Shown here: positions 3,072-12,720 of the stretch, piece by piece | Layout of the letters: the number at the start of each line of letters is the position of its first letter | Numbering within the stretch: the first letter of the stretch is position 1 | From: a virus | Lineage: Duplodnaviria > Heunggongvirae > Uroviricota > Caudoviricetes | Reading direction: 5' to 3' (one strand) | Length of the DNA stretch: 12,720 nucleotides | IMG/VR virus record: IMGVR_UViG_2690316152_000008 | Location: 1-12,720 of that record | Program-made: the position numbers and the translations under genes | Notes under the pieces: generated by a model | What the model was told of the DNA's origin: nothing | Seen by the model: the letters and a program-made list of their open reading frames with translations, nothing else | The model's database searches: none

Positions 3072-4052
3072 TTATAACGTCACTCCGCCTTTTAGTGGAT
3101 TCAGAGCGACGGCATTTTGCAGATAGTCAGGCGCAAGGTGCGCATAGGCCATCGTCTGCTGAATGCTCGCATGTCCCAGAATCTGTTGCAGTGCGATTAT
3201 ATTGCCCCCATTCATCATGAAATGGCTTGCGAATGTATGCCGCAGGATGTGGGTTGCCTGATTGGGTGGTATATCAGGTTTCACTCTGCGTAAAATCCCG
3301 CAAAATTTCTCATAATCAACTTTGAATAATTTGGCGCTGGCCTCCTCTTTAACTTTTTTCTCCAGTTCCTCAGAAATCGGCACGGTTCGCTTTTTACCGT
3401 TTTTGGTTTTCAGGAAGGTAACCCTGCAATTTGTAATCTGTGCTGGTTTTAGCGTGGCAACTTCCGTCTATCTTCCTCCAGTGCTCAGACATAAAAGCGC
3501 GACAAGTAAGTCATCACCAGCCAAAACATTTAACAGTTTTTCGATTTCTGCTTTTTCCAGGAACGTCATTTCAGGGTTGGCCTCCGCCAGTGGCGGCAGT
3601 CCGTGAATTGGGTGTTGCCCAGAAAATTCATCCAATTGAATTAATTTTGTGAACATGCCGGATAATCGGTACATGTCACGGTTTATCGTTGCGGCACTGA
3701 TACCATCACGTAGTCGCATGGAACGATAATCCATCAAAGCCCTTTTGCTCATCCTGCTCACTGGTATATCACCTATGCCGCTGATGGTTTTGAGTAGATG
3801 ATTAAACTCTTTTGTTCCATGCTCGTGGTTTTGCCCGTGATATTTCCACCAGATGTCCAGCAACTCACTCAAAGTCCGGCGGTCTGCTCGCTGGCCTCCC
3901 CATTCTTTCTGACTGGCATTGGCGATTGTGTATCGCTCAAATGCTAGTGCTTCAGCTTTTCTTTCGAATTTCCTGCGGATGCGTTTTCCGTCGCGACCGC
4001 GAGGTCTAATGTCCACTTCATAGCGACCATCATCGAGCTTCTTAATTGCCAT
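3072..4052 (-). pseudogene. int: P2-type tyrosine integrase interrupted by one in-frame amber codon (TAG at 3470..3468)
   Basis: Track ORFs 3468..4082 and 3072..3383 are in the same frame. Read-through translation gives ...LCLSTGGR*TEVATLK...KTKNGKKRTVPISEEL...HILRHTFASHFMMNGG...LGHASIQQTMAYAH, i.e. box I Arg, HxxR and catalytic Tyr of a tyrosine recombinase. The stop sits where Trp is usual (STGxRW); plus-strand 3468-3470 is CTA. Likely true start is ATG 4052 (GGAGG 8 nt upstream, N-terminus MAIKKLDDGRYEV). Confidence 0.8.
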
Positions 4053-4121
4053 AAGAAAGCCCTCCGGCGCTGTATTCACCATCTTGGTAGCAAATGGTGA
4101 AAATGTAATCTTTATATAGAG

Positions 4122-4415
4122 TTAGCCAATCCTTTTTGCGGAGTGGTTGGACTCTGTTGACTCTGGCCCAATGTGCGCGAGAGCCGGTGCGATTTGTCCT
4201 GCGTCCGGCGCGGTTTTATCTGTCATAAGCCATAGAGCATATTTTTGGAATGTGGGATGCATAGTGATTTTTAGCAAAGCTGTGCCACCGGGTTCAAAGT
4301 TTCCTCCTTCATATTTTTTAAGTGTGCTTAGCGGTAACTCTATGATTTCACAGAATTTTGATTGGCTTAGCCCTTCAGCCTCACGCAAGGCCTTAATCTT
4401 TTCGCTTAATTTCAT
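4122..4415 (-). CDS. C: Prophage immunity repressor, P2 C-like (97 aa)
   Basis: Small protein with an N-terminal helix-turn-helix-like segment (LSQSKFCEIIELPLSTLKKYE), immediately upstream of and co-directional with int, divergent from cox, as in P2 C-int. Symbol assigned by synteny and size, not by search. Confidence 0.75.
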   Translation of the reverse strand: MKLSEKIKALREAEGLSQSKFCEIIELPLSTLKKYEGGNFEPGGTALLKITMHPTFQKYALWLMTDKTAPDAGQIAPALAHIGPESTESNHSAKRIG

Positions 4416-6308: not shown

Positions 6309-6580
6309 GTATTCGTATTGAAATTGGCGAACGTTATGTCGTTACCAGTGACAGCTTTCAGTTTATTCTCCACGAGAAAAAGAGAGCTGAAAGCGGTAAA
6401 AACGCCGGTCAGGAATGGCTGGCGGTGGTTGGTTATTACCCGAAATTAAGCCAGCTCGTTTCCGGCCTGATGCATCACGATATTCTGACCGGAAGCGCAA
6501 AGTCTTTTGCTGATTTAAACGCGCAGGTTGAGCAACTCAGCAAGCGTTGTTCAGAGGCTTTTGGCTCATATGGCCGTTAA
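6305..6580 (+). CDS. Hypothetical early protein (91 aa)
   Basis: GGAG 6 nt upstream of ATG 6305; stop TAA 6578-6580 overlaps the start region of gene A. Confidence 0.6.
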   Translation: MSIRIEIGERYVVTSDSFQFILHEKKRAESGKNAGQEWLAVVGYYPKLSQLVSGLMHHDILTGSAKSFADLNAQVEQLSKRCSEAFGSYGR

Positions 6581-8846
6581 AGCCTCCGGGCGTTTTGTCC
6601 CTCCGTCAGCATTTGCCGCAGGCACCGGTGAGACGTTTACCGGTGCTTATGCATGGAACGCGCCACGCGAGGCCGTCGGGCGAGAAAGACCTCTTACACG
6701 TGACGAGATGCGTCAGGTGCAAGGTGTTTTATCCACGATTAACCGCCTGCCTTACTTTTTGCGCTCGCTGTTTACTTCACGCTATGACTACATCCGGAGC
6801 AATAAAAGTCCGGTACACGGGTTTTATTTCCTCACATCCACTTTTCAGCGTCGTTTATGGCCGCGTATTGAGCGTGTGAATCAGCGCCATGAAATGAACA
6901 CCGACGCGTCGTTGCTGTTTCTGGCAGAGCGTGACCACTATGCGCGCCTGCCAGGAATGAATGACAAGGAGCTGAAAAAGTTTGCCGCCCGTATCTCATC
7001 GCAGCTTTTCATGATGTATGAGGAACTCTGCGATGCCTGGGTGGATGCGCATGGCGAAAAAGAATCGCTGTTTACGGATGAGGCGCAGGCTCACCTGTAT
7101 GGTCATGTTGCTGGCGCTGCACGTGCTTTCAATATTTCCCCTCTCTACTGGAAAAAATACCGTAAAGGACAGATGACCACGAGGCAGGCATATTCTGCCA
7201 TTGCCCGCCTGTTTAACGATGAGTGGTGGATTAGTCAGCTTAAAGGCCAGCGTATGCGCTGGCATGAGGCGTTACTGATTGCTGTCGGGGAGGTCAATAA
7301 AGACCGTTCACCTTATGCCAGTAAACATGCCATTCGTGATGTGCGTGCGCGCCGCCAGGCAAATCTGGAATTTCTTAAATCGTGTGACCTTGAAAACAGG
7401 GAAACCGGCGAGCGCATCGACCTTATCAGTAAGGTGATGGGCAGTATTTCTAATCCTGAAATTCGCCGGATGGAGCTGATGAACACCATTGCCGGTATTG
7501 AGCGTTACGCCGCATCAGAGGGTGATGTGGGGATGTTTATCACGCTTACCGCGCCGTCAAAGTATCACCCGACACGTCAGGTTGGAAAAGGCGAAAATAA
7601 AACCGTCCAGCTTAATCACGGCTGGAATGATGAGGCATTTAATCCAAAGGATGCGCAGCGTTATCTCTGTCGTATCTGGAGCCTGATGCGCACGGCATTC
7701 AAGGATAATGATTTACAGGTCTACGGTTTGCGAGTCGTCGAGCCACACCACGACGGAACGCCGCACTGGCATATGATGCTTTTTTGTAATCTACGCCAGC
7801 GTAACCAGATTATCGAAATCATGCGTCGCTATGCGCTCAAAGAGGATGGCGACGAAAGAGGAGCCGCGCGAAACCGTTTTCAGGCAAAACACCTTAACCG
7901 GGGCGGTGCTGCGGGATATATCGCGAAATACATTTCAAAAAATATCGACGGCTATGCACTGGATGGTCAGCTCGATAACGATACCGGCAGACCGCTGAAA
8001 GATACTGCGGCGGCTGTTACCGCATGGGCGTCAACGTGGCGCATCCCGCAATTTAAAACGGTTGGCCTGCCGACAATGGGAGCTTACCGTGAGCTACGTA
8101 AATTGCCTCGCGGCGTCAGCATTGCTGATGAATTTGACGAACGCGTGGAGGCTGCACGCGCCGCCGCAGACAGTGGCGATTTTGCGCTGTATATCAGCGC
8201 GCAGGGCGGGGCAAATGTCCCGCGCGATTGTCAGACTGTCAGGGTCGCTCGTAGCCCGTCGGATGACGTTAACGAATACGAGGAAGAAGTCGAGAGAGTG
8301 GTCGGCATTTACGCGCCGCATCTCGGCGCGCGTCATATTCATATCACCAGAACGACGGACTGGCGCATTGTGCCGAAAGTTCCGGTCGTTGAGCCTTTGA
8401 CTTTAAAAAGCGGCATCGCCGCGCCTCGGAGTCCTGTCAATAACTGTGGAAAGCTCACCGGCGGTAATACTTCGTTACCGGCTCCCTCGCCTTCTGAGCA
8501 CGCCGCAGCAGTGCTTAATCTGGTTGATGACGGTGTTATCGAATGGAATGACCCGGAGGTCGTGAGGACGCTCAGGGGTGCATTAAAGCACGGCCTGAAA
8601 ATACCAAATCGTCAGCAAAGAAACGGAAGCCCGTTAAAACCACATGAAATAGCACCGTCGGCCAGGCTGACCCGGTCGGAACGATTGCAAATTACCCGTA
8701 TCCGCGTTGATCTCGCTCAGAACGGTATCAGGCCGCAACGATGGGAGCTTGAGGCGCTGGCGCGTGGCGCGACCGTAAATTATGACGGGAAACCTTTCAC
8801 TTATCAGGTCGCTGATGATTGGCCGGGATTTTTGTTACCCATTTGA
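6570..8846 (+). CDS. A: Rolling-circle replication initiator endonuclease, P2 gpA family (758 aa from ATG 6570)
   Basis: Translation contains an HUH-type motif (TPHWHMMLF) and paired tyrosines spaced by 3 residues (GYIAKYISK), the hallmarks of RCR initiators of the P2 A type; large size; last gene of the early operon. The track start at 6528 is a TTG; in-frame ATG 6570 gives a P2-A-like length. Confidence 0.9.
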   Translation: MAVKASGRFVPPSAFAAGTGETFTGAYAWNAPREAVGRERPLTRDEMRQVQGVLSTINRLPYFLRSLFTSRYDYIRSNKSPVHGFYFLTSTFQRRLWPRIERVNQRHEMNTDASLLFLAERDHYARLPGMNDKELKKFAARISSQLFMMYEELCDAWVDAHGEKESLFTDEAQAHLYGHVAGAARAFNISPLYWKKYRKGQMTTRQAYSAIARLFNDEWWISQLKGQRMRWHEALLIAVGEVNKDRSPYASKHAIRDVRARRQANLEFLKSCDLENRETGERIDLISKVMGSISNPEIRRMELMNTIAGIERYAASEGDVGMFITLTAPSKYHPTRQVGKGENKTVQLNHGWNDEAFNPKDAQRYLCRIWSLMRTAFKDNDLQVYGLRVVEPHHDGTPHWHMMLFCNLRQRNQIIEIMRRYALKEDGDERGAARNRFQAKHLNRGGAAGYIAKYISKNIDGYALDGQLDNDTGRPLKDTAAAVTAWASTWRIPQFKTVGLPTMGAYRELRKLPRGVSIADEFDERVEAARAAADSGDFALYISAQGGANVPRDCQTVRVARSPSDDVNEYEEEVERVVGIYAPHLGARHIHITRTTDWRIVPKVPVVEPLTLKSGIAAPRSPVNNCGKLTGGNTSLPAPSPSEHAAAVLNLVDDGVIEWNDPEVVRTLRGALKHGLKIPNRQQRNGSPLKPHEIAPSARLTRSERLQITRIRVDLAQNGIRPQRWELEALARGATVNYDGKPFTYQVADDWPGFLLPI

Positions 8847-9106
8847 GTAAAAATACAGCGTGATTTTATATGTCTTTGAATGGATTATGCGAAGCACCTC
8901 TAAGGTAGATGAGGAGCAATAGCGTGTTGAATCAGAAGGCTAAATTGTATTGAATCGTTAGCATGTAATTGAAGGCAGCTATTTGATTCGAGTCATAAAA
9001 GAGCATCTATTTCGGTTAATAAAACCATTGCGAGTGACTTTATGTCGAAGCATAATTCATCTCGAGCGAAGTCTTGCTAGTCTTTCATCGGATTGATGAC
9101 GGGCGC

Positions 9107-9136
9107 AAAAAAACCACCCTGGCAGGTGGTTTTTTT
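9107..9136. terminator. Bidirectional rho-independent terminator
   Basis: A7 (9107-9113), stem ACCACC / GGTGGT (9113-9118 / 9125-9130) with loop CTGGCA, then T7 (9130-9136). Works for the plus-strand early transcript and for the minus-strand small ORF. Confidence 0.7.
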
Positions 9137-9148
9137 GTTTGAAGCATA

Positions 9149-9262
9149 CTAAAGAAAAATACTTACATGGATATTACTGACGTTTACTGACAAACCACTC
9201 GGACTACCATATGGATAGCCAAAGAGGGCCAGAACGAGAATGCAGTAATAGCACTTCTTCAT
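9149..9262 (-). CDS. Small hydrophobic protein, 37 aa (MKKCYYCILVLALFGYPYGSPSGLSVNVSNIHVSIFL); candidate small membrane peptide
   Basis: Not in the ORF track (<60 aa). Perfect AGGAGG (plus 9267-9272) 4 nt upstream of ATG 9262..9260; stop TAG at 9151..9149; the bidirectional terminator follows 13 nt downstream. No homology claimed. Confidence 0.3.
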   Translation of the reverse strand: MKKCYYCILVLALFGYPYGSPSGLSVNVSNIHVSIFL

Positions 9263-9918
9263 ATCGCCTCCTGTAAGCAGAGGGCAATTTCCGCCGATAT
9301 ATGCGCTTCTAAGGCGGAGTGACTATTGAGCGAAGTCTTGCCCTGAAATAATGCTCTGTTTAAACGCAAAGTGATCTGGCATATCACCGAACAGAGGACC
9401 TGAACAACACAATATATAGTATGTCGTTGTTTCTGGTTGCATTTTATGTTGTGTAATACTGGTTTTGCATCAAGGATGTTTGAGCTTTTTTTGATATAGC
9501 TCAAAGTAAAAAGCAGAGACTACGGATGATAAGGTCTTGAAAGCAATGTAAATTTTTTAAAGTTGTGAGTGGCTAGAAATGCACAGTTTCAATATGGCGG
9601 ATTTAAACAAGTAATTAAAAATAGCGCCATAAATTCCAATAAAATCATTATGTTGCGTTTTCTGTGGAAGCTGCGGTGACTCTGAAATTTTCTTTTAGTG
9701 TCGCTGAGGTTTAACAACTCGCTGCGCAAGTAGTTAGTGTTTTTTTAACTCAATGTTCTGATTTATAAGGTTTTTTATAAATCGTGGGCTGATTGCGCGT
9801 ATTCATCTCGTGTTATCAGCAAAGATAAGCGCTATATGCAGAACTGAATGCATATATGATGTCGAAAATGTTATGGGAAAACGTGGATTAGTGTTATAGT
9901 AATGGCTGAAAAACAGCC

Positions 9919-9947
9919 TTGACATAAAATAACAACTGTGATATGGC
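9919..9947 (+). promoter_or_regulatory. Candidate sigma-70 promoter for the ImmA-like gene
   Basis: Perfect -35 TTGACA at 9919-9924; weak -10 candidates ATATGG / TATGGC at 9941-9947 (16-17 bp spacer); 37-45 nt upstream of the ATG. Confidence 0.4.
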
Positions 9948-9983
9948 TGTGCATACTTAACTTTTTTAACGTAGGAGGCAACC

Positions 9984-10469
9984 ATGAGCTATGCAGCTAA
10001 AAAACTGCTTGACCGCTATTGGGATCGCCGACTACCTGTCGATCCGTTTAAGCTTGCTAAAGCGTGGGGTGCTCGTGTTGAAGCACTTGAGGAATCGGCT
10101 TATAACAACGATGGGTTAAGCGGTCTGGCTGTCATCAAAAAGGGTGTCCATAGGATTTATTTTGATTCTAGTGAACATTCTAATCGTCAACGTTTTACTG
10201 TTGCACACGAGTTAGGTCATCATGTGCTGGGGCATACCCAGGACGGAGAGTACCATCGGGATAATGTCGGGAATTATTCAACAGGTGCTCGTGATTACCG
10301 TGAGGTTGAAGCAAACAAGTTTGCTGCTGAGTTGTTAATGCCTGAGTCTGCTATACGTCAATTGGTATCCAGAGAAGGTATTGATAGCACTTTGAGATTA
10401 GCAAGCATCTTTAATGTATCAGAAGCCGCTATGCATTGGCGCTTAAAGAGCTTAGGAATGGCTTATTAA
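9984..10469 (+). CDS. ImmA/IrrE-family (peptidase M78 / COG2856-like) zinc metallopeptidase, 161 aa
   Basis: HEXXH motif in TVAHELGHHVLGH with a downstream Glu-rich segment (EVEANKFAAELLMPE), typical of ImmA/IrrE-type proteases; AGGAGG at 9973-9978, 5 nt before the ATG. No adjacent HTH partner gene. Confidence 0.85.
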   Translation: MSYAAKKLLDRYWDRRLPVDPFKLAKAWGARVEALEESAYNNDGLSGLAVIKKGVHRIYFDSSEHSNRQRFTVAHELGHHVLGHTQDGEYHRDNVGNYSTGARDYREVEANKFAAELLMPESAIRQLVSREGIDSTLRLASIFNVSEAAMHWRLKSLGMAY

Positions 10470-10497
10470 TTAGCCTTTAACTTTTAACCTGTTTAAA

Positions 10498-10535
10498 ATC
10501 ACCTTTACGTTTGTACATGTAAGGGTGATTTTTTT
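10498..10535 (+). terminator. Strong hairpin plus T-run between the peptidase and membrane-protein genes; terminator/attenuator that also sequesters the downstream SD
   Basis: Stem ATCACCTTTA (10498-10507) pairs with TAAGGGTGAT (10520-10529), 10 bp with one G.U, 12-nt loop, then T6 (10530-10535) directly abutting ATG 10536. The right arm TAAGGGTGAT is itself the SD-like sequence of the next gene. Confidence 0.55.
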
Positions 10536-11135
10536 ATGGCTGATATTGATTTATCTGGACAGTCCCCAGAGCAAGGAACCACTCCTAAGGGCGATTTAGA
10601 TCCTGATATCCTTATAAGGCGAGATAGACGGGATGGTATAGAGCGTAGAAGTATGCGATTAGTGCTCTCTGCCGTTGTGCTTTGTTTTGCTTGTACATTT
10701 CTATGGCAGGGGCTTAACTTTGCTTTGGCTGTTGGAAATGGCTTGCTGGAAGCGAAAAGCAGTATTGCCACAGCGATAACACAAAAAGTAGATGCACAAA
10801 CTTGTGTTTCAGCAGAAAAATGTTCTGCTTTATCTGCGGATCCGAAGATGGCTGATGAGAGGATAACACCATCTTCAGACACTAATAAAGTTAGAAAATC
10901 TATTTCTGGTTTATCCACCGATTGGTTATCGGCCAGTTCTCTAATAGCTATTGTTGCATTCATCCTTGGTGTGGGTTTAACTTTGCTTTTGACTCTTCTT
11001 AAATCAGCATTTCAACACCCGACAGATAAAGACTTTAGAACAAAGTCGACATCTAATACTATTGAGTTGGCCACGCCAATCAGTGAATTAATAATTGGTG
11101 TTCTGAATATAATTAAAGACAAACTATCTAAGTAA
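10536..11135 (+). CDS. Two-transmembrane-segment membrane protein of unknown function (199 aa)
   Basis: Charged N-terminus (RRDRRDGIERR) followed by hydrophobic helices LVLSAVVLCFACTFLWQGLNFALAV and LIAIVAFILGVGLTLLLTLL; ends at a convergent terminator. Overlapping minus-strand ORF 10505..10963 judged spurious. Confidence 0.7.
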   Translation: MADIDLSGQSPEQGTTPKGDLDPDILIRRDRRDGIERRSMRLVLSAVVLCFACTFLWQGLNFALAVGNGLLEAKSSIATAITQKVDAQTCVSAEKCSALSADPKMADERITPSSDTNKVRKSISGLSTDWLSASSLIAIVAFILGVGLTLLLTLLKSAFQHPTDKDFRTKSTSNTIELATPISELIIGVLNIIKDKLSK

Positions 11136-11176
11136 AGCATTAGTTGTGATTTTTTATTGGTTTTAGTGATAATACA

Positions 11177-11210
11177 TCTCCAGTACTTATTGTTACTGGA
11201 GAGTATTTTT
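11177..11210. terminator. Convergent terminator hairpin between the membrane-protein gene and the 313-aa gene
   Basis: 9-bp stem TCTCCAGTA / TACTGGAGA (11177-11185 / 11194-11202), 8-nt loop, followed by GTATTTTT on the plus strand; 16 nt from the minus-strand gene stop. Confidence 0.55.
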
Positions 11211-11217
11211 AGTCGTT

Positions 11218-12159
11218 TTATATTTTTAATGTTAGTGAATGATATTCACGAGAGTTCACGTTCGATGTGATGTAATCGGGGGCGTTAACACCAAGAATCG
11301 CAACGAGCAATCGGCAAATTAAAGCCTGCATTTGTTGTAATATGTCATCTCCATATTGATAATTGTTAATAGTGGTAAAGCCAAGTGGTTGACCATGAAA
11401 CATAGCTTCATGAAAGTTTTCATTGCGGATGTTTGTAATGTTTTTTTTGCCTGTAACCCATGATGGTCGTGGTATGCCATAAGTTTTGCAGATCCACTTC
11501 AAGCGCCTGGAGTGATTTAGAGTCTTTTCTGTACACTTGTTCTTTTCTGCCCATGTTAAAGCAAAGCAACTATCCAGTGCCATATAAAGATACTGGAATT
11601 TTTCGAAGCTAAGGTATTGTGGGTTTTGGGATAAAAATAGTGCATGCACTATTGCTGCGATATTTATTGGTGCGTGTTTGGTTTTTTTCTCGCTAGACAT
11701 GTATTTGAGTGCTAATTCTATAACCTCTTTTTCAGAGCACTTGACCAGAATAAAGTCAGTTAATTTGCTGGGTTTTATTGGGGTTGCGTCTAAAAAACCG
11801 GCATCAGTAGTTGTTAATCTTATCCCTTTGAAAAAAGACAGACACCACACAGCAAAATTGAGAGTTTCTAGTGAAGATGTATTTTTTAATTTTAGTGAGT
11901 GTGTTTTGGGTAAGCCAAATACTCGTTGGCTAAAAGGCATTGTGGATATGCCTCCATTGAGGTTATATACTTCTTGGTTTCCTGGGTATATCCAACCGTT
12001 AATAACATTTCTGTGATTGTTTATAAGATTTGTTTTTTCCGCTAGACCGGGTAAAGTAAGTAAAGAAAAATCATCAGTTTCAACGTTAACGTCTACTGGA
12101 TAGTATCCAAACTCAGCTTCAATATCATTGGATTGCTGTTCGTCAACTTTACCTTGCAT
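11218..12159 (-). CDS. 313-aa protein of unknown function with a C-terminal R-N-x3-H (HEPN-like) motif; candidate abortive-infection effector
   Basis: Long AT-rich ORF; GGAG 6 nt upstream of ATG 12159..12157; motif IRNENFHEAMFHG near the C-terminus matches the HEPN R-[NHQ]-x3-H signature. Family not recognised. Confidence 0.8.
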   Translation of the reverse strand: MQGKVDEQQSNDIEAEFGYYPVDVNVETDDFSLLTLPGLAEKTNLINNHRNVINGWIYPGNQEVYNLNGGISTMPFSQRVFGLPKTHSLKLKNTSSLETLNFAVWCLSFFKGIRLTTTDAGFLDATPIKPSKLTDFILVKCSEKEVIELALKYMSSEKKTKHAPINIAAIVHALFLSQNPQYLSFEKFQYLYMALDSCFALTWAEKNKCTEKTLNHSRRLKWICKTYGIPRPSWVTGKKNITNIRNENFHEAMFHGQPLGFTTINNYQYGDDILQQMQALICRLLVAILGVNAPDYITSNVNSREYHSLTLKI

Positions 12160-12186
12160 ACATTGCTCCGGTCAAAAATAGGCTAG

Positions 12187-12216
12187 ATAATTCTCGTAAG
12201 CCTATCATGTTCGCAA
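12187..12216 (-). promoter_or_regulatory. Candidate promoter for the 313-aa gene
   Basis: Minus-strand TTGCGA (plus 12216..12211) and AATTAT (plus 12192..12187) with 18-bp spacer, about 30 nt upstream of the start codon; weak match. Confidence 0.3.
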
Positions 12217-12396
12217 AGTATCCATACCTGTGGATTTTGTAAATTTAAGTTGATTTGTCATTAAATAAGCCGTGCATGCAACAAGTGAATGTTTTTGCAT
12301 GCGTCGGGGATGCCCGTTCCGGCTGCTTGCGGTCAGAGCTGGTGCGGATCCATAGTATCTAAGCAACTGCATTAAAACCGCCCTATGAAGCGGGCG

Positions 12397-12415
12397 GGCG
12401 AGGCGGGGAAAGCAC
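12397..12415. other. P2/186/P4-type cos site (19-nt cohesive-end sequence GGCGAGGCGGGGAAAGCAC)
   Basis: Exact 19-mer at 12397-12415, embedded in a GC-rich region with GGTGCGG-type repeats, between the accessory island and the portal-like gene. Confidence 0.8.
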
Positions 12416-12556
12416 TGCGCGCTGGCGGTGGTGCGGATTTTATTTTTTCAGCGTCTGAGCGCGTCGTGACGGCGTTTAGTCTGCCCGTTGGGGGTTGGTG
12501 TGTCTGCGGGATGTTTTGTGCGGTGGTGAGCGTGTGAGGGCGTGATGACGGGGTGT

Positions 12557-12578
12557 AAAAAAGCCGCCCGCAGGCGGC
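12557..12578 (-). terminator. Rho-independent terminator of the portal-like gene
   Basis: On the minus strand GCCGCC-TGCG-GGCGGC followed by T6 (plus A6 at 12557-12562), 5 nt after the stop codon. Confidence 0.7.
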
Positions 12579-12583
12579 GATGT

Positions 12584-12720
12584 TCAGCCGTTGTCTGTGT
12601 CCAGTGAGTAGTTTTTAAAGCGGATAACCTCCTGACCGAGCCAGCCGTTTATTTCCCGAATCCTGTCCTGTAACGGGATAAGCTCATTGCGGACAAAGAC
12701 CTTTGCCACTTTCTCAATAT
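12584..12720 (-). CDS. 3' end of a capsid portal-like gene (P2 Q position), continuing beyond the window
   Basis: Open frame from the window edge to stop TGA (plus 12584-12586), C-terminus ...RIREINGWLGQEVIRFKNYSLDTDNG; its 3' end faces cos as P2 Q does. Assignment by synteny only. Confidence 0.55.
   Translation of the reverse strand, partial: IEKVAKVFVRNELIPLQDRIREINGWLGQEVIRFKNYSLDTDNG

What the first reader, a model, noticed from the sequence alone, without database searches (positions are those of the whole stretch)
9919..11210. Orphan ImmA-type metallopeptidase plus membrane protein: candidate two-gene defence module
The HEXXH peptidase (9984-10469) has its own promoter and a perfect SD but no adjacent HTH repressor, which is the usual partner in ImmR/ImmA or CapH/CapP-type pairs. 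It is followed by a 2-TM membrane protein (10536-11135) with a highly charged N-terminus. The pairing and its location in a prophage accessory island suggest a protease-controlled membrane effector. I do not recognise the pair as a named system.
Basis: partly seen in the sequence, partly recalled or inferred. Interest (0 to 1): 0.8.

Follow-up and report, generated by a model that had tools for sequence, protein, structure and literature searches.

The report
Minimal peptidase plus membrane protein cassette
A small zinc peptidase gene and the two-pass membrane protein gene behind it form a cassette that always travels together between phages, plasmids and genomic islands; here it sits in the known defence hotspot of a P2-like prophage, and it most resembles RosmerTA-type toxin-antitoxin defence systems, but nobody has tested it.

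Summary
Window 9984-10469 encodes a 161-aa M78 (ImmA/IrrE) peptidase with an intact HEXXH...E site. Window 10536-11135 encodes a 199-aa two-helix inner-membrane protein with a charged N-terminus. No HTH partner lies next to them.

The window is E. coli cpxARP followed by a P2-like prophage. The pair lies between the replication gene A and the portal gene, which is the published P2 defence hotspot.

In about 25 distinct genetic contexts (some 50 loci) that carry the membrane gene, the peptidase is directly upstream on the same strand. These include P2, P1-like and Mu-like prophages, plasmids, integrase islands and 11 metagenome contigs. More distant short M78 peptidases across several phyla also have a small membrane-protein neighbour.

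A conserved terminator-like hairpin with compensatory changes abuts the membrane gene's ATG and buries its ribosome-binding site. A short N-terminal D-L-S-G motif recurs even in partners that cannot otherwise be aligned.

The pair is listed but untested in Rousset 2022 Table S5. The closest known kind is RosmerTA. The peptidase lacks the RmrA HTH and the CapP sensor domain, and the membrane protein matches no known toxin.

Best reading: a protease-controlled toxic membrane effector acting in defence or element maintenance. This is inferred, not shown. ORF313 next door is a separate, probable HEPN gene.

The parts
9919..9947 (+). Candidate promoter of the cassette: TTGACA at 9919-9924, then TGTGATATGGC with a TG-extended weak -10.
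   Evidence: Read from the sequence. The TTGACA and the TGTGATA(T/A)GGCT element are conserved in L001, L004 and L055. The consensus scan did not list it. Function is not shown.
9973..9978 (+). Shine-Dalgarno AGGAGG of the peptidase gene.
   Evidence: It lies 5 nt upstream of the ATG at 9984. ACGTAGGAGGCAACCATG is conserved across unrelated contexts.
9984..10469 (+). 161-aa stand-alone M78 (ImmA/IrrE) zinc peptidase. It is cytoplasmic and has no HTH, GAF or cysteine-switch domain.
   Evidence: PF06114, E 3.8e-21. PADLOC capP 1.1e-30, covering profile positions 8-153 of 242; the best RmrA model (E 6.1e-17) is matched only over its peptidase part, profile positions 146-267 of 363. phrog_87 metallo-protease. 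Best solved relative is CapP 7T5T, E 2.2e-14, over residues 24-174 of 291. HEXXH, E107 and D93 are invariant. Highest 19-residue hydropathy is 0.65, so no membrane segment.
10495..10535 (+). Terminator-like hairpin: 16-bp stem 10495-10510 / 10517-10532, loop 10511-10516, then a T-run that reaches the ATG. The 3' arm contains the only SD-like sequence of the membrane gene (AAGGGTGAT, 10521-10529).
   Evidence: The fold of the 95-nt stretch 10466-10560 that contains the hairpin gives -25.1 kcal/mol, z -4.65, with 0 of 200 shuffles as stable. A hairpin plus T-run is present in 12 of 13 diverse loci. 99.2% of cells are paired and 3 pairs change on both sides. Vibrio, Aeromonas and Klebsiella grimontii loci carry hairpins of different sequence at the same position.
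10536..11135 (+). 199-aa two-helix inner-membrane protein (phrog_8096). Predicted layout: cytoplasmic N-tail with a DIDLSGQSP motif, variable linker, RR-rich juxtamembrane stretch, TM1 about 42-66, variable loop with C-x6-C, highly conserved TM2 about 131-155, C-terminal amphipathic helix.
   Evidence: ORF. No Pfam, PADLOC or PDB match. phrog_8096, E 1.4e-123. 51 clusters in the word-indexed search and 58 representatives among 1.84 billion proteins. Alignment A1. Hydropathy, charge and per-region conservation. AlphaFold model with mean pLDDT 64.9 and helices 23-89, 116-159 and 180-198.
10542..10568 (+). Codons for the conserved N-terminal short motif (residues 3-11, DIDLSGQSP). Candidate recognition or cleavage site for the peptidase.
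   Evidence: D5 is invariant in A1. D[LFY]S lies within the first ~20 residues of most full-length members, and in 4 of 7 non-alignable two-TM partners of distant short M78 peptidases (4 of 20000 shuffles reach this; the motif was defined post hoc). The link to the peptidase is inference.
11177..11202 (.). Bidirectional terminator-like hairpin between the membrane gene and the convergent ORF313. It marks the 3' end of the cassette.
   Evidence: The scan lists it on both strands: 9-bp stem, 8-nt loop.
11218..12159 (-). ORF313, a neighbouring but separate hotspot gene. Probable HEPN-domain protein.

Best explanation
This is a self-contained two-gene mobile cassette of the 'ImmA-protease plus toxic partner' kind, RosmerTA-like.

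The second gene makes a small inner-membrane protein, with both ends predicted in the cytoplasm, that is harmful when it accumulates. Its very conserved second transmembrane helix probably oligomerises and depolarises or permeabilises the membrane.

The first gene makes a minimal, catalytically active cytoplasmic M78 zinc peptidase. It acts on the membrane protein's cytoplasmic tail, most likely at the conserved N-terminal D-L-S-G motif held on a flexible linker, and keeps the protein harmless.

Expression is biased towards the peptidase. It has a consensus Shine-Dalgarno, whereas the membrane gene sits behind a terminator-like hairpin that also buries its ribosome-binding site.

When an infecting phage, or loss of the element, disturbs this balance, intact membrane protein accumulates and the cell stops growing or dies. 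That aborts the infection or stabilises the carrier element.

Shown here: the genes, the intact active site, strict co-occurrence and mobility, the conserved hairpin, the conserved N-terminal motif, and the hotspot location.

Inferred: toxicity, cleavage of the tail, the direction of control (neutralising rather than activating), and the anti-phage role.
For: 1. Obligate pairing across unrelated carriers: the P2 hotspot, a Serratia island, Enterobacter plasmids, Vibrio integrase islands, P1-like and Mu-like prophages, a CP4-type island, and 11 of 11 metagenome loci.
2. 15 or 16 of 18 short M78 homologues from other phyla also have an adjacent small membrane-protein gene on the same strand, in either gene order.
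3. The catalytic residues are invariant, so proteolysis itself is under selection.
4. A conserved hairpin plus T-run abuts the ATG and occludes the SD. It shows compensatory changes, and hairpins of different sequence occupy the same position in distant members. This fits tight limitation of a dangerous product.
5. An N-terminal short motif is retained even in non-alignable partners.
6. Location: the pair lies in the published P2 defence hotspot. In Serratia it lies about 1.8 kb from a canonical RosmerTA (RmrT 8.5e-59, RmrA 2.7e-145). In P. aeruginosa prophages a related pair sits directly behind cI.
7. Precedent: RosmerTA uses an ImmA-domain antitoxin with diverse toxins, deletion of rmrA could not be obtained, and the Gordonia phage Kita toxin RmrT-D5 depolarises membranes and defends against phages.
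Against: - There are no experimental data for this pair. It was not among the systems tested in Rousset 2022, Vassallo 2022 or the other screens checked.
- The membrane protein has no detectable similarity to any known toxin or effector.
- The peptidase lacks the HTH and C-terminal parts of RmrA, so the neutralisation mechanism of RosmerTA, itself unknown, may not carry over.
- Gene order varies in the wider family, which weakens the 'antitoxin first' argument.
- Some ImmA-domain proteins are themselves toxic, for example PD-lambda-2B.
- A complex model to test tail docking could not be run.
- The motif statistic is post hoc.
Confidence: 0.45

Rival explanations
1. Protease-activated pore (zymogen logic). 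The membrane protein is made as an inactive pro-form whose N-terminal tail is inhibitory. A phage cue switches on the peptidase, or exposes the tail, and clipping at the D-L-S-G motif triggers pore formation and abortive infection. This is analogous to protease-activated gasdermins and other proteolytically activated defence effectors.
For: The active site is invariant. A conserved N-terminal motif sits on a flexible linker. CapP, the closest solved relative, is a signal-activated peptidase. Proteolytic activation of defence effectors is an established theme.
Against: The 161-aa peptidase has no sensor domain. It lacks the GAF domain and cysteine-switch loop that make CapP signal-dependent. 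Known activating proteases are fused to sensors. The double lock on expression of the membrane gene is easier to explain if the intact product is dangerous.
Confidence: 0.2
2. Pure addiction or stabilisation module. It has the same toxin-neutraliser biochemistry as the main explanation, but its selected role is post-segregational killing that keeps the prophage, plasmid or island in the lineage. It has no anti-phage effect.
For: The pair is found on plasmids and integrative islands as well as in prophages. The architecture is TA-like. Many TA modules have no demonstrated defence role.
Against: In P2-like phages it occupies the position from which many validated defence systems come. It sits next to RosmerTA in Serratia and behind cI in Pseudomonas prophages. 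These sites are typical of lysogen-expressed defence genes.
Confidence: 0.12
3. Superinfection-exclusion or other envelope function. The membrane protein's variable periplasmic loop interferes with DNA entry by incoming phages, or with another envelope process. The peptidase only matures or turns over the membrane protein and no cell death is involved.
For: The loop between the helices is the most variable part in length and sequence and carries a conserved cysteine pair, whereas TM2 is nearly invariant. Prophage-encoded inner-membrane exclusion proteins are common (established knowledge).
Against: This reading gives no reason for an obligately linked, catalytically conserved cytoplasmic peptidase, nor for the strong attenuation of the membrane gene. 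Short relatives such as the 135-aa Pseudomonas protein have almost no loop.
Confidence: 0.1
4. Trans-acting anti-repressor. The orphan ImmA-type peptidase cleaves an XRE-type repressor encoded elsewhere, either the prophage's own C repressor at 4122-4415 or the repressor of a competing element. The membrane gene would be an unrelated passenger.
For: ImmA, IrrE and CapP all cleave HTH repressors. The prophage C protein is an HTH_3 protein.
Against: The pair is found in carriers with no P2-type repressor. The membrane gene is never separated from the peptidase in about 50 loci (and others). The cassette lies in the variable cargo region 5.5 kb from C, not in the immunity region.
Confidence: 0.05

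Closest known systems
RosmerTA (RmrT/RmrA; Millman et al. 2022; Ernits et al. 2023, NetFlax node D25)
   Same: It is a two-gene module with an ImmA/M78 zinc-peptidase-domain partner next to a toxin of otherwise unknown family. It is carried by phages and islands. One validated member (Gordonia phage Kita) has a membrane-depolarising toxin, and gene order is variable. The PADLOC RmrA models hit this peptidase (best E 6.1e-17).
   Different: RmrA proteins are about 360-400 aa with an N-terminal Xre HTH and a C-terminal region. This peptidase is 161 aa and matches only profile positions 146-267 of 363 of the best RmrA model. The membrane protein matches no RmrT model. A canonical RosmerTA sits beside the pair in Serratia as a distinct system.
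CapP/CapH regulator of CBASS and other immune operons (Lau et al. 2022; Calloji et al. 2026)
   Same: CapP is the best sequence match for the peptidase domain (PADLOC capP 1.1e-30; PDB 7T5T 2.2e-14).
   Different: There is no GAF domain or cysteine-switch loop, which are the elements that bind ssDNA and gate CapP. There is no adjacent CapH HTH substrate and no downstream immune operon. The partner is a membrane protein.
ImmR/ImmA and IrrE/DdrO repressor-cleaving pairs
   Same: Same M78 peptidase fold family (PF06114; IrrE 3DTE 2.7e-13).
   Different: There is no adjacent HTH repressor in any context, and the pair is not in an immunity or excision control region. More distant Firmicutes homologues in the locus set do have a neighbour of about 145-160 aa in the upstream position, the ImmR/ImmA-like layout, though those neighbours were not domain-scanned. 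This shows the present arrangement is a different branch.
Lambda RexAB and other prophage abortive-infection systems with membrane effectors
   Same: It is a two-gene lysogen-carried cassette with a small inner-membrane effector. The Pseudomonas relatives sit directly behind cI, as rexAB does. The comparison with RexAB is from established knowledge.
   Different: There is no sequence relationship, and the soluble partner here is a zinc peptidase.

Membership tests
RosmerTA | The partner protein carries an ImmA/M78 zinc-peptidase domain | tested here: met
   PF06114 E 3.8e-21. 15 RmrA models hit, best E 6.1e-17.
RosmerTA | Full-length RmrA architecture: N-terminal Xre-type HTH, peptidase, C-terminal region, about 360-400 aa | tested here: not met
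   The protein is 161 aa. Only the peptidase part of the RmrA models is matched (positions 146-267 of 363 for the best model). No HTH family is hit. A true RmrA in L006 matches end to end (2.7e-145).
RosmerTA | The partner matches a known RmrT toxin family | tested here: not met
   The membrane protein has no PADLOC hit at E <= 1. RmrT of L006 scores 8.5e-59 in the same library.
RosmerTA | The toxin is toxic, is neutralised by the peptidase protein, and the system protects against phage | not testable with these tools
   This needs toxicity-rescue and plaque assays.
CapP/CapH | CapP-type peptidase domain | tested here: met
   PADLOC capP 1.1e-30. 7T5T 2.2e-14.
CapP/CapH | C-terminal GAF domain and cysteine-switch loop that sense ssDNA | tested here: not met
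   The match covers capP profile positions 8-153 of 242 and 7T5T residues 24-174 of 291. The protein ends at residue 161.
CapP/CapH | Adjacent CapH-type HTH repressor and a regulated immune operon | tested here: not met
   There is no HTH ORF beside the peptidase in the window or in the other contexts.
ImmR/ImmA | Adjacent ImmR-type repressor in the immunity or excision control region of a mobile element | tested here: not met
   Same evidence as above. The prophage C repressor lies 5.5 kb away, and the pair occurs in carriers without it.
P2 defence hotspot cargo (tin/old position) | Located between the replication endonuclease gene A and the portal gene Q of a P2-like prophage | tested here: met
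   gpA is at 6528-8846 (PF05840 1.6e-122). In the near-identical ZH177 prophage the portal follows ORF313. The hotspot is defined, and the locus is listed in Rousset Table S5.
Validated anti-phage defence system | Experimentally shown reduction of phage plating | not testable with these tools
   No report was found.

The most novel reading that the evidence does not exclude
The cassette is the enterobacterial face of a large, unnamed, cross-phylum class of about 350-residue two-gene systems. In these, a bare M78 peptidase reads a short N-terminal D-[LF]-S motif on a small two-helix membrane protein and acts as the switch: clipping the tail turns the protein into a membrane pore. That would be gasdermin-like proteolytic activation reduced to its minimum, with infection sensed by the peptidase or through exposure of the tail.
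Probability: 0.2. Interest if true: 0.8.

Novelty: new variant of a known kind. Interest (0 to 1): 0.55.

Why it matters
If the cassette is a working defence or addiction module, it adds a compact protease-plus-membrane-effector design to the systems carried in the P2 hotspot.

It would also point to a much wider, unstudied class. Short stand-alone M78 peptidases sit next to small membrane proteins in Proteobacteria, Bacteroidota, Planctomycetota, Spirochaetes and candidate phyla.

It offers a tractable system of 161 + 199 residues for asking how ImmA-type peptidases control toxic partners. That question is still open for RosmerTA.

The conserved hairpin, which both terminates transcription and hides the ribosome-binding site, is a clear and testable regulatory element.

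Tried and rejected
Docking of the tail into the active site is therefore untested.
- Collection scans: genome contigs with the membrane alignment confirmed no locus. Viral-contig scans with three divergent members found nothing. The afdb50 fold library was unavailable.
- RNA families: Rfam found nothing above gathering score in 8700-12720. The weak RNAI and Phe-leader-like hits at 9049-9215 are taken as chance.
- Membrane protein: no match in Pfam, PADLOC or PDB by sequence. Its AlphaFold model (mean pLDDT 64.9) was judged too weak for fold search.
- ORF313 as a third component: rejected, because it occurs without the pair and the pair occurs without it.
- CapP/CapH and ImmR/ImmA membership: rejected on missing domains and missing partner.
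- Peptidase acting on the P2 C repressor: rejected on distribution.
- Antisense ORF 10505-10963: taken as spurious, because the plus-strand frame is conserved in homologues at 25-60% identity.
- Literature: no test of this pair was found in Rousset 2022, Vassallo 2022, Evans 2025 or the 2025 metagenomic selection paper. Accession searches found no paper.
- dN/dS on the loop: not attempted, because synonymous sites are saturated at these divergences.
Full report
**Setting.** The window carries E. coli cpxA, cpxR and cpxP (167-2885). A P2-like prophage follows:
- an integrase at 3072-4082;
- an HTH_3 C-type repressor at 4122-4415;
- cox, a TraR-like zinc finger and DUF5405 genes;
- the replication endonuclease gpA at 6528-8846 (PF05840, E 1.6e-122).

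In the near-identical prophage of strain ZH177, gpA is followed by the same three cargo genes and then by the portal and terminase genes. The finding therefore lies in the gpA-portal interval, the tin/old position of P2. Two papers describe this interval as a hotspot of anti-phage systems (Vassallo 2022; Rousset 2022).

**The observation.**
- Both ORFs are present at the stated coordinates.
- The first is a 161-aa PF06114 peptidase (E 3.8e-21). It has HEXXH at residues 75-79 and the downstream E107 in the EANKFAAELLMP block. These residues, plus D93, are invariant in 13 pair-associated homologues that fall to 32% identity.
- Its AGGAGG lies 5 nt before the ATG, and the block ACGTAGGAGGCAACCATG is conserved across unrelated carriers.
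- The proposed promoter has a perfect -35 and a conserved downstream element but a weak -10. The consensus scan did not list it.
- The second ORF is a 199-aa protein with two hydrophobic segments, about 42-66 and 131-155. Its first 41 residues carry 8 basic and 9 acidic residues. The AlphaFold model shows helices over both segments.
- Arginines before TM1 and lysines after TM2 predict that both termini are cytoplasmic. The loop carries a conserved cysteine pair.
- No HTH gene is adjacent.

**Is it a module?** Yes.
- Within E. coli, 47 complete genomes carry a near-identical pair. Three carry a version at about 74% nucleotide identity, in a P2 hotspot with different neighbours and without ORF313.
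- A P2-like phage, P2DC1, has the peptidase followed by the same membrane gene. Its annotation simply starts at an internal ATG.
- The membrane family is small: 51 clusters in the 5.8-billion-protein search and 58 representatives in 1.84 billion.
- Every member whose surroundings I could read has a 158-166-aa M78 peptidase 30-74 nt upstream on the same strand. The carriers were:
  - a Serratia chromosomal island;
  - Enterobacter plasmid islands;
  - Vibrio recombinase and integrase islands;
  - a phage contig carrying SSB and tape-measure genes;
  - the end of a Pectobacterium prophage;
  - a P1-like element;
  - a CP4-type island with CbtA/CbeA;
  - the end of a Klebsiella grimontii prophage;
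  - an Aeromonas Mu-like prophage;
  - nine viral contigs;
  - 11 of 11 metagenome contigs.
- ORF313 is not part of the module. It occurs in P2-EC67 with other partners, and the pair occurs without it.

**A wider pattern.** Short M78 peptidases at 36-47% identity, from Comamonas, Desulfovibrionaceae, Parasutterella, Hymenobacter, a Nomurabacteria genome and others, also have a small membrane-protein gene next to them on the same strand.
- In a crude ORF and hydropathy survey, 15 or 16 of 18 short homologues had such a neighbour, downstream in about half and upstream in the rest.
- Those partners cannot be aligned with the E. coli protein.
- Even so, 4 of 7 of them carry D-[LFY]-S within the first 35 residues. 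This is the motif that heads the E. coli family (M-A-D-I-D-L-S-G-Q-S-P). Only 4 of 20000 composition-preserving shuffles reach that count. I defined the motif after seeing the data.
- In P. aeruginosa prophages, a 170-aa peptidase and a 135-aa two-helix protein lie directly behind cI.

**Regulatory anatomy.**
- The 66-nt spacer ends in a 16-bp hairpin (10495-10532), followed by Ts that run into the ATG at 10536.
- The only SD-like sequence of the membrane gene (AAGGGTGAT) lies in the 3' arm.
- The 95-nt stretch 10466-10560 that contains the hairpin folds far better than shuffles (z -4.65).
- Twelve of 13 diverse loci have a hairpin plus T-run at this position.
- In ten enterobacterial loci, 99.2% of cells pair, and three pairs change on both sides. 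Slid controls drop to 27-74% pairing.
- Vibrio, Aeromonas and Klebsiella grimontii loci have hairpins of unrelated sequence in the same place.
- A palindromic protein-binding site could mimic such covariation. However, the cassette encodes no DNA-binding protein, and the T-run fits a terminator.
- The design predicts plentiful peptidase and scarce, doubly restrained membrane protein.

**Comparison with known systems.**
- The peptidase's best matches are CapP (PADLOC 1.1e-30; PDB 7T5T 2.2e-14), IrrE, and the peptidase part of RmrA (best E 6.1e-17).
- It stops where the peptidase domain stops. It has no GAF domain or cysteine-switch loop, which make CapP respond to ssDNA. It has no HTH, unlike RmrA.
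- The membrane protein matches nothing in Pfam, PADLOC or the PDB. In PHROGs it matches only an unannotated family.
- RosmerTA is the closest described kind. It pairs a zinc-peptidase antitoxin with diverse toxins, and a strain deleted for rmrA could not be obtained.
- The ImmA node of the NetFlax network shows variable gene order. The Gordonia phage Kita member has a membrane-depolarising toxin and protects against two BASEL phages.
- In Serratia, a canonical RosmerTA (RmrT 8.5e-59, RmrA 2.7e-145) lies about 1.8 kb from the pair. The two are therefore distinct systems that share a neighbourhood.

**Prior record.** Rousset 2022 Table S5 lists 'hypothetical + hypothetical + Peptidase_M78' with WP_001517496 + WP_024165494 + WP_000119270. 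It also lists the two-gene form and the diverged form. None appears in their tables of tested or validated systems. I found no mention in Vassallo 2022, whose only M78 protein is the HTH-fused PD-lambda-2B. I found none in Evans 2025, none in the 2025 metagenomic selection paper, and none by accession search.

**Mechanism.** I favour a RosmerTA-like arrangement, at about 0.45 confidence.
- The membrane protein is a toxic effector.
- The peptidase holds it in check through proteolysis of a cytoplasmic tail.
- Infection or loss of the element upsets the balance.

The support is the invariant active site, the obligate pairing, the restraint on the membrane gene, the conserved N-terminal motif on a variable linker, and the precedent.

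The main rival reverses the sign: the peptidase activates a pro-form (0.2). The lack of any sensor domain and the double lock on expression argue against this rival, but neither point is decisive.

Other rivals are a pure addiction role (0.12), an exclusion or envelope role (0.1) and trans-cleavage of a repressor (0.05). Toxicity, cleavage and defence are all untested.

**Verdict.** The module is real, mobile and strictly linked, and it sits in a recognised defence hotspot. It is a new variant of a known kind rather than something categorically new, and it is a good, cheap experimental target. Interest 0.55.

Noticed in passing
[not shown]
   Followed up: partly
window 3072-4082 (- strand): The prophage integrase is split by a single premature stop codon (…STGGR*TEV…). 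The otherwise identical gene in strain ZH177 is intact at 326 aa, with 1 mismatch in 1045 nt. This copy of the prophage may be unable to excise.
   Followed up: partly
window 8847-~9689: About 0.8 kb directly after gpA has no ORF of note and no annotation. Yet it is conserved at 86-94% in roughly 100 other E. coli P2-like prophages that carry different hotspot cargo. The variable cargo begins only at about 9690. Rfam gives only sub-threshold hits here.
   Followed up: partly
L006 8463-10246 (Serratia nevei contig): A canonical RosmerTA pair (RmrT 223 aa, RmrA 371 aa with HTH plus M78) lies about 1.8 kb downstream of the short-peptidase/membrane pair, between the phn operon and nrdD. This is a small defence-island-like cluster.
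   Followed up: yes
L062-L064 4001-4934 (P. aeruginosa prophages): A 170-aa M78 peptidase and a 135-aa two-helix protein sit immediately downstream of the S24-type cI repressor, in the position that rexAB occupies in lambda. The small protein is only weakly related to the E. coli membrane protein (E 4e-5 against the family profile in a nine-sequence test set) and has no intergenic hairpin.
   Followed up: partly
L020, L021, L025, L026, L028-L030 (diverse genomes): In several distant short M78 homologues the small membrane-protein gene lies upstream of the peptidase rather than downstream. This mirrors the variable gene order reported for RosmerTA-type pairs.
   Followed up: no
window 10505-10963 (- strand): A 152-aa antisense ORF overlaps the membrane gene. 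It is taken as spurious because the plus-strand frame is the conserved one.
   Followed up: no
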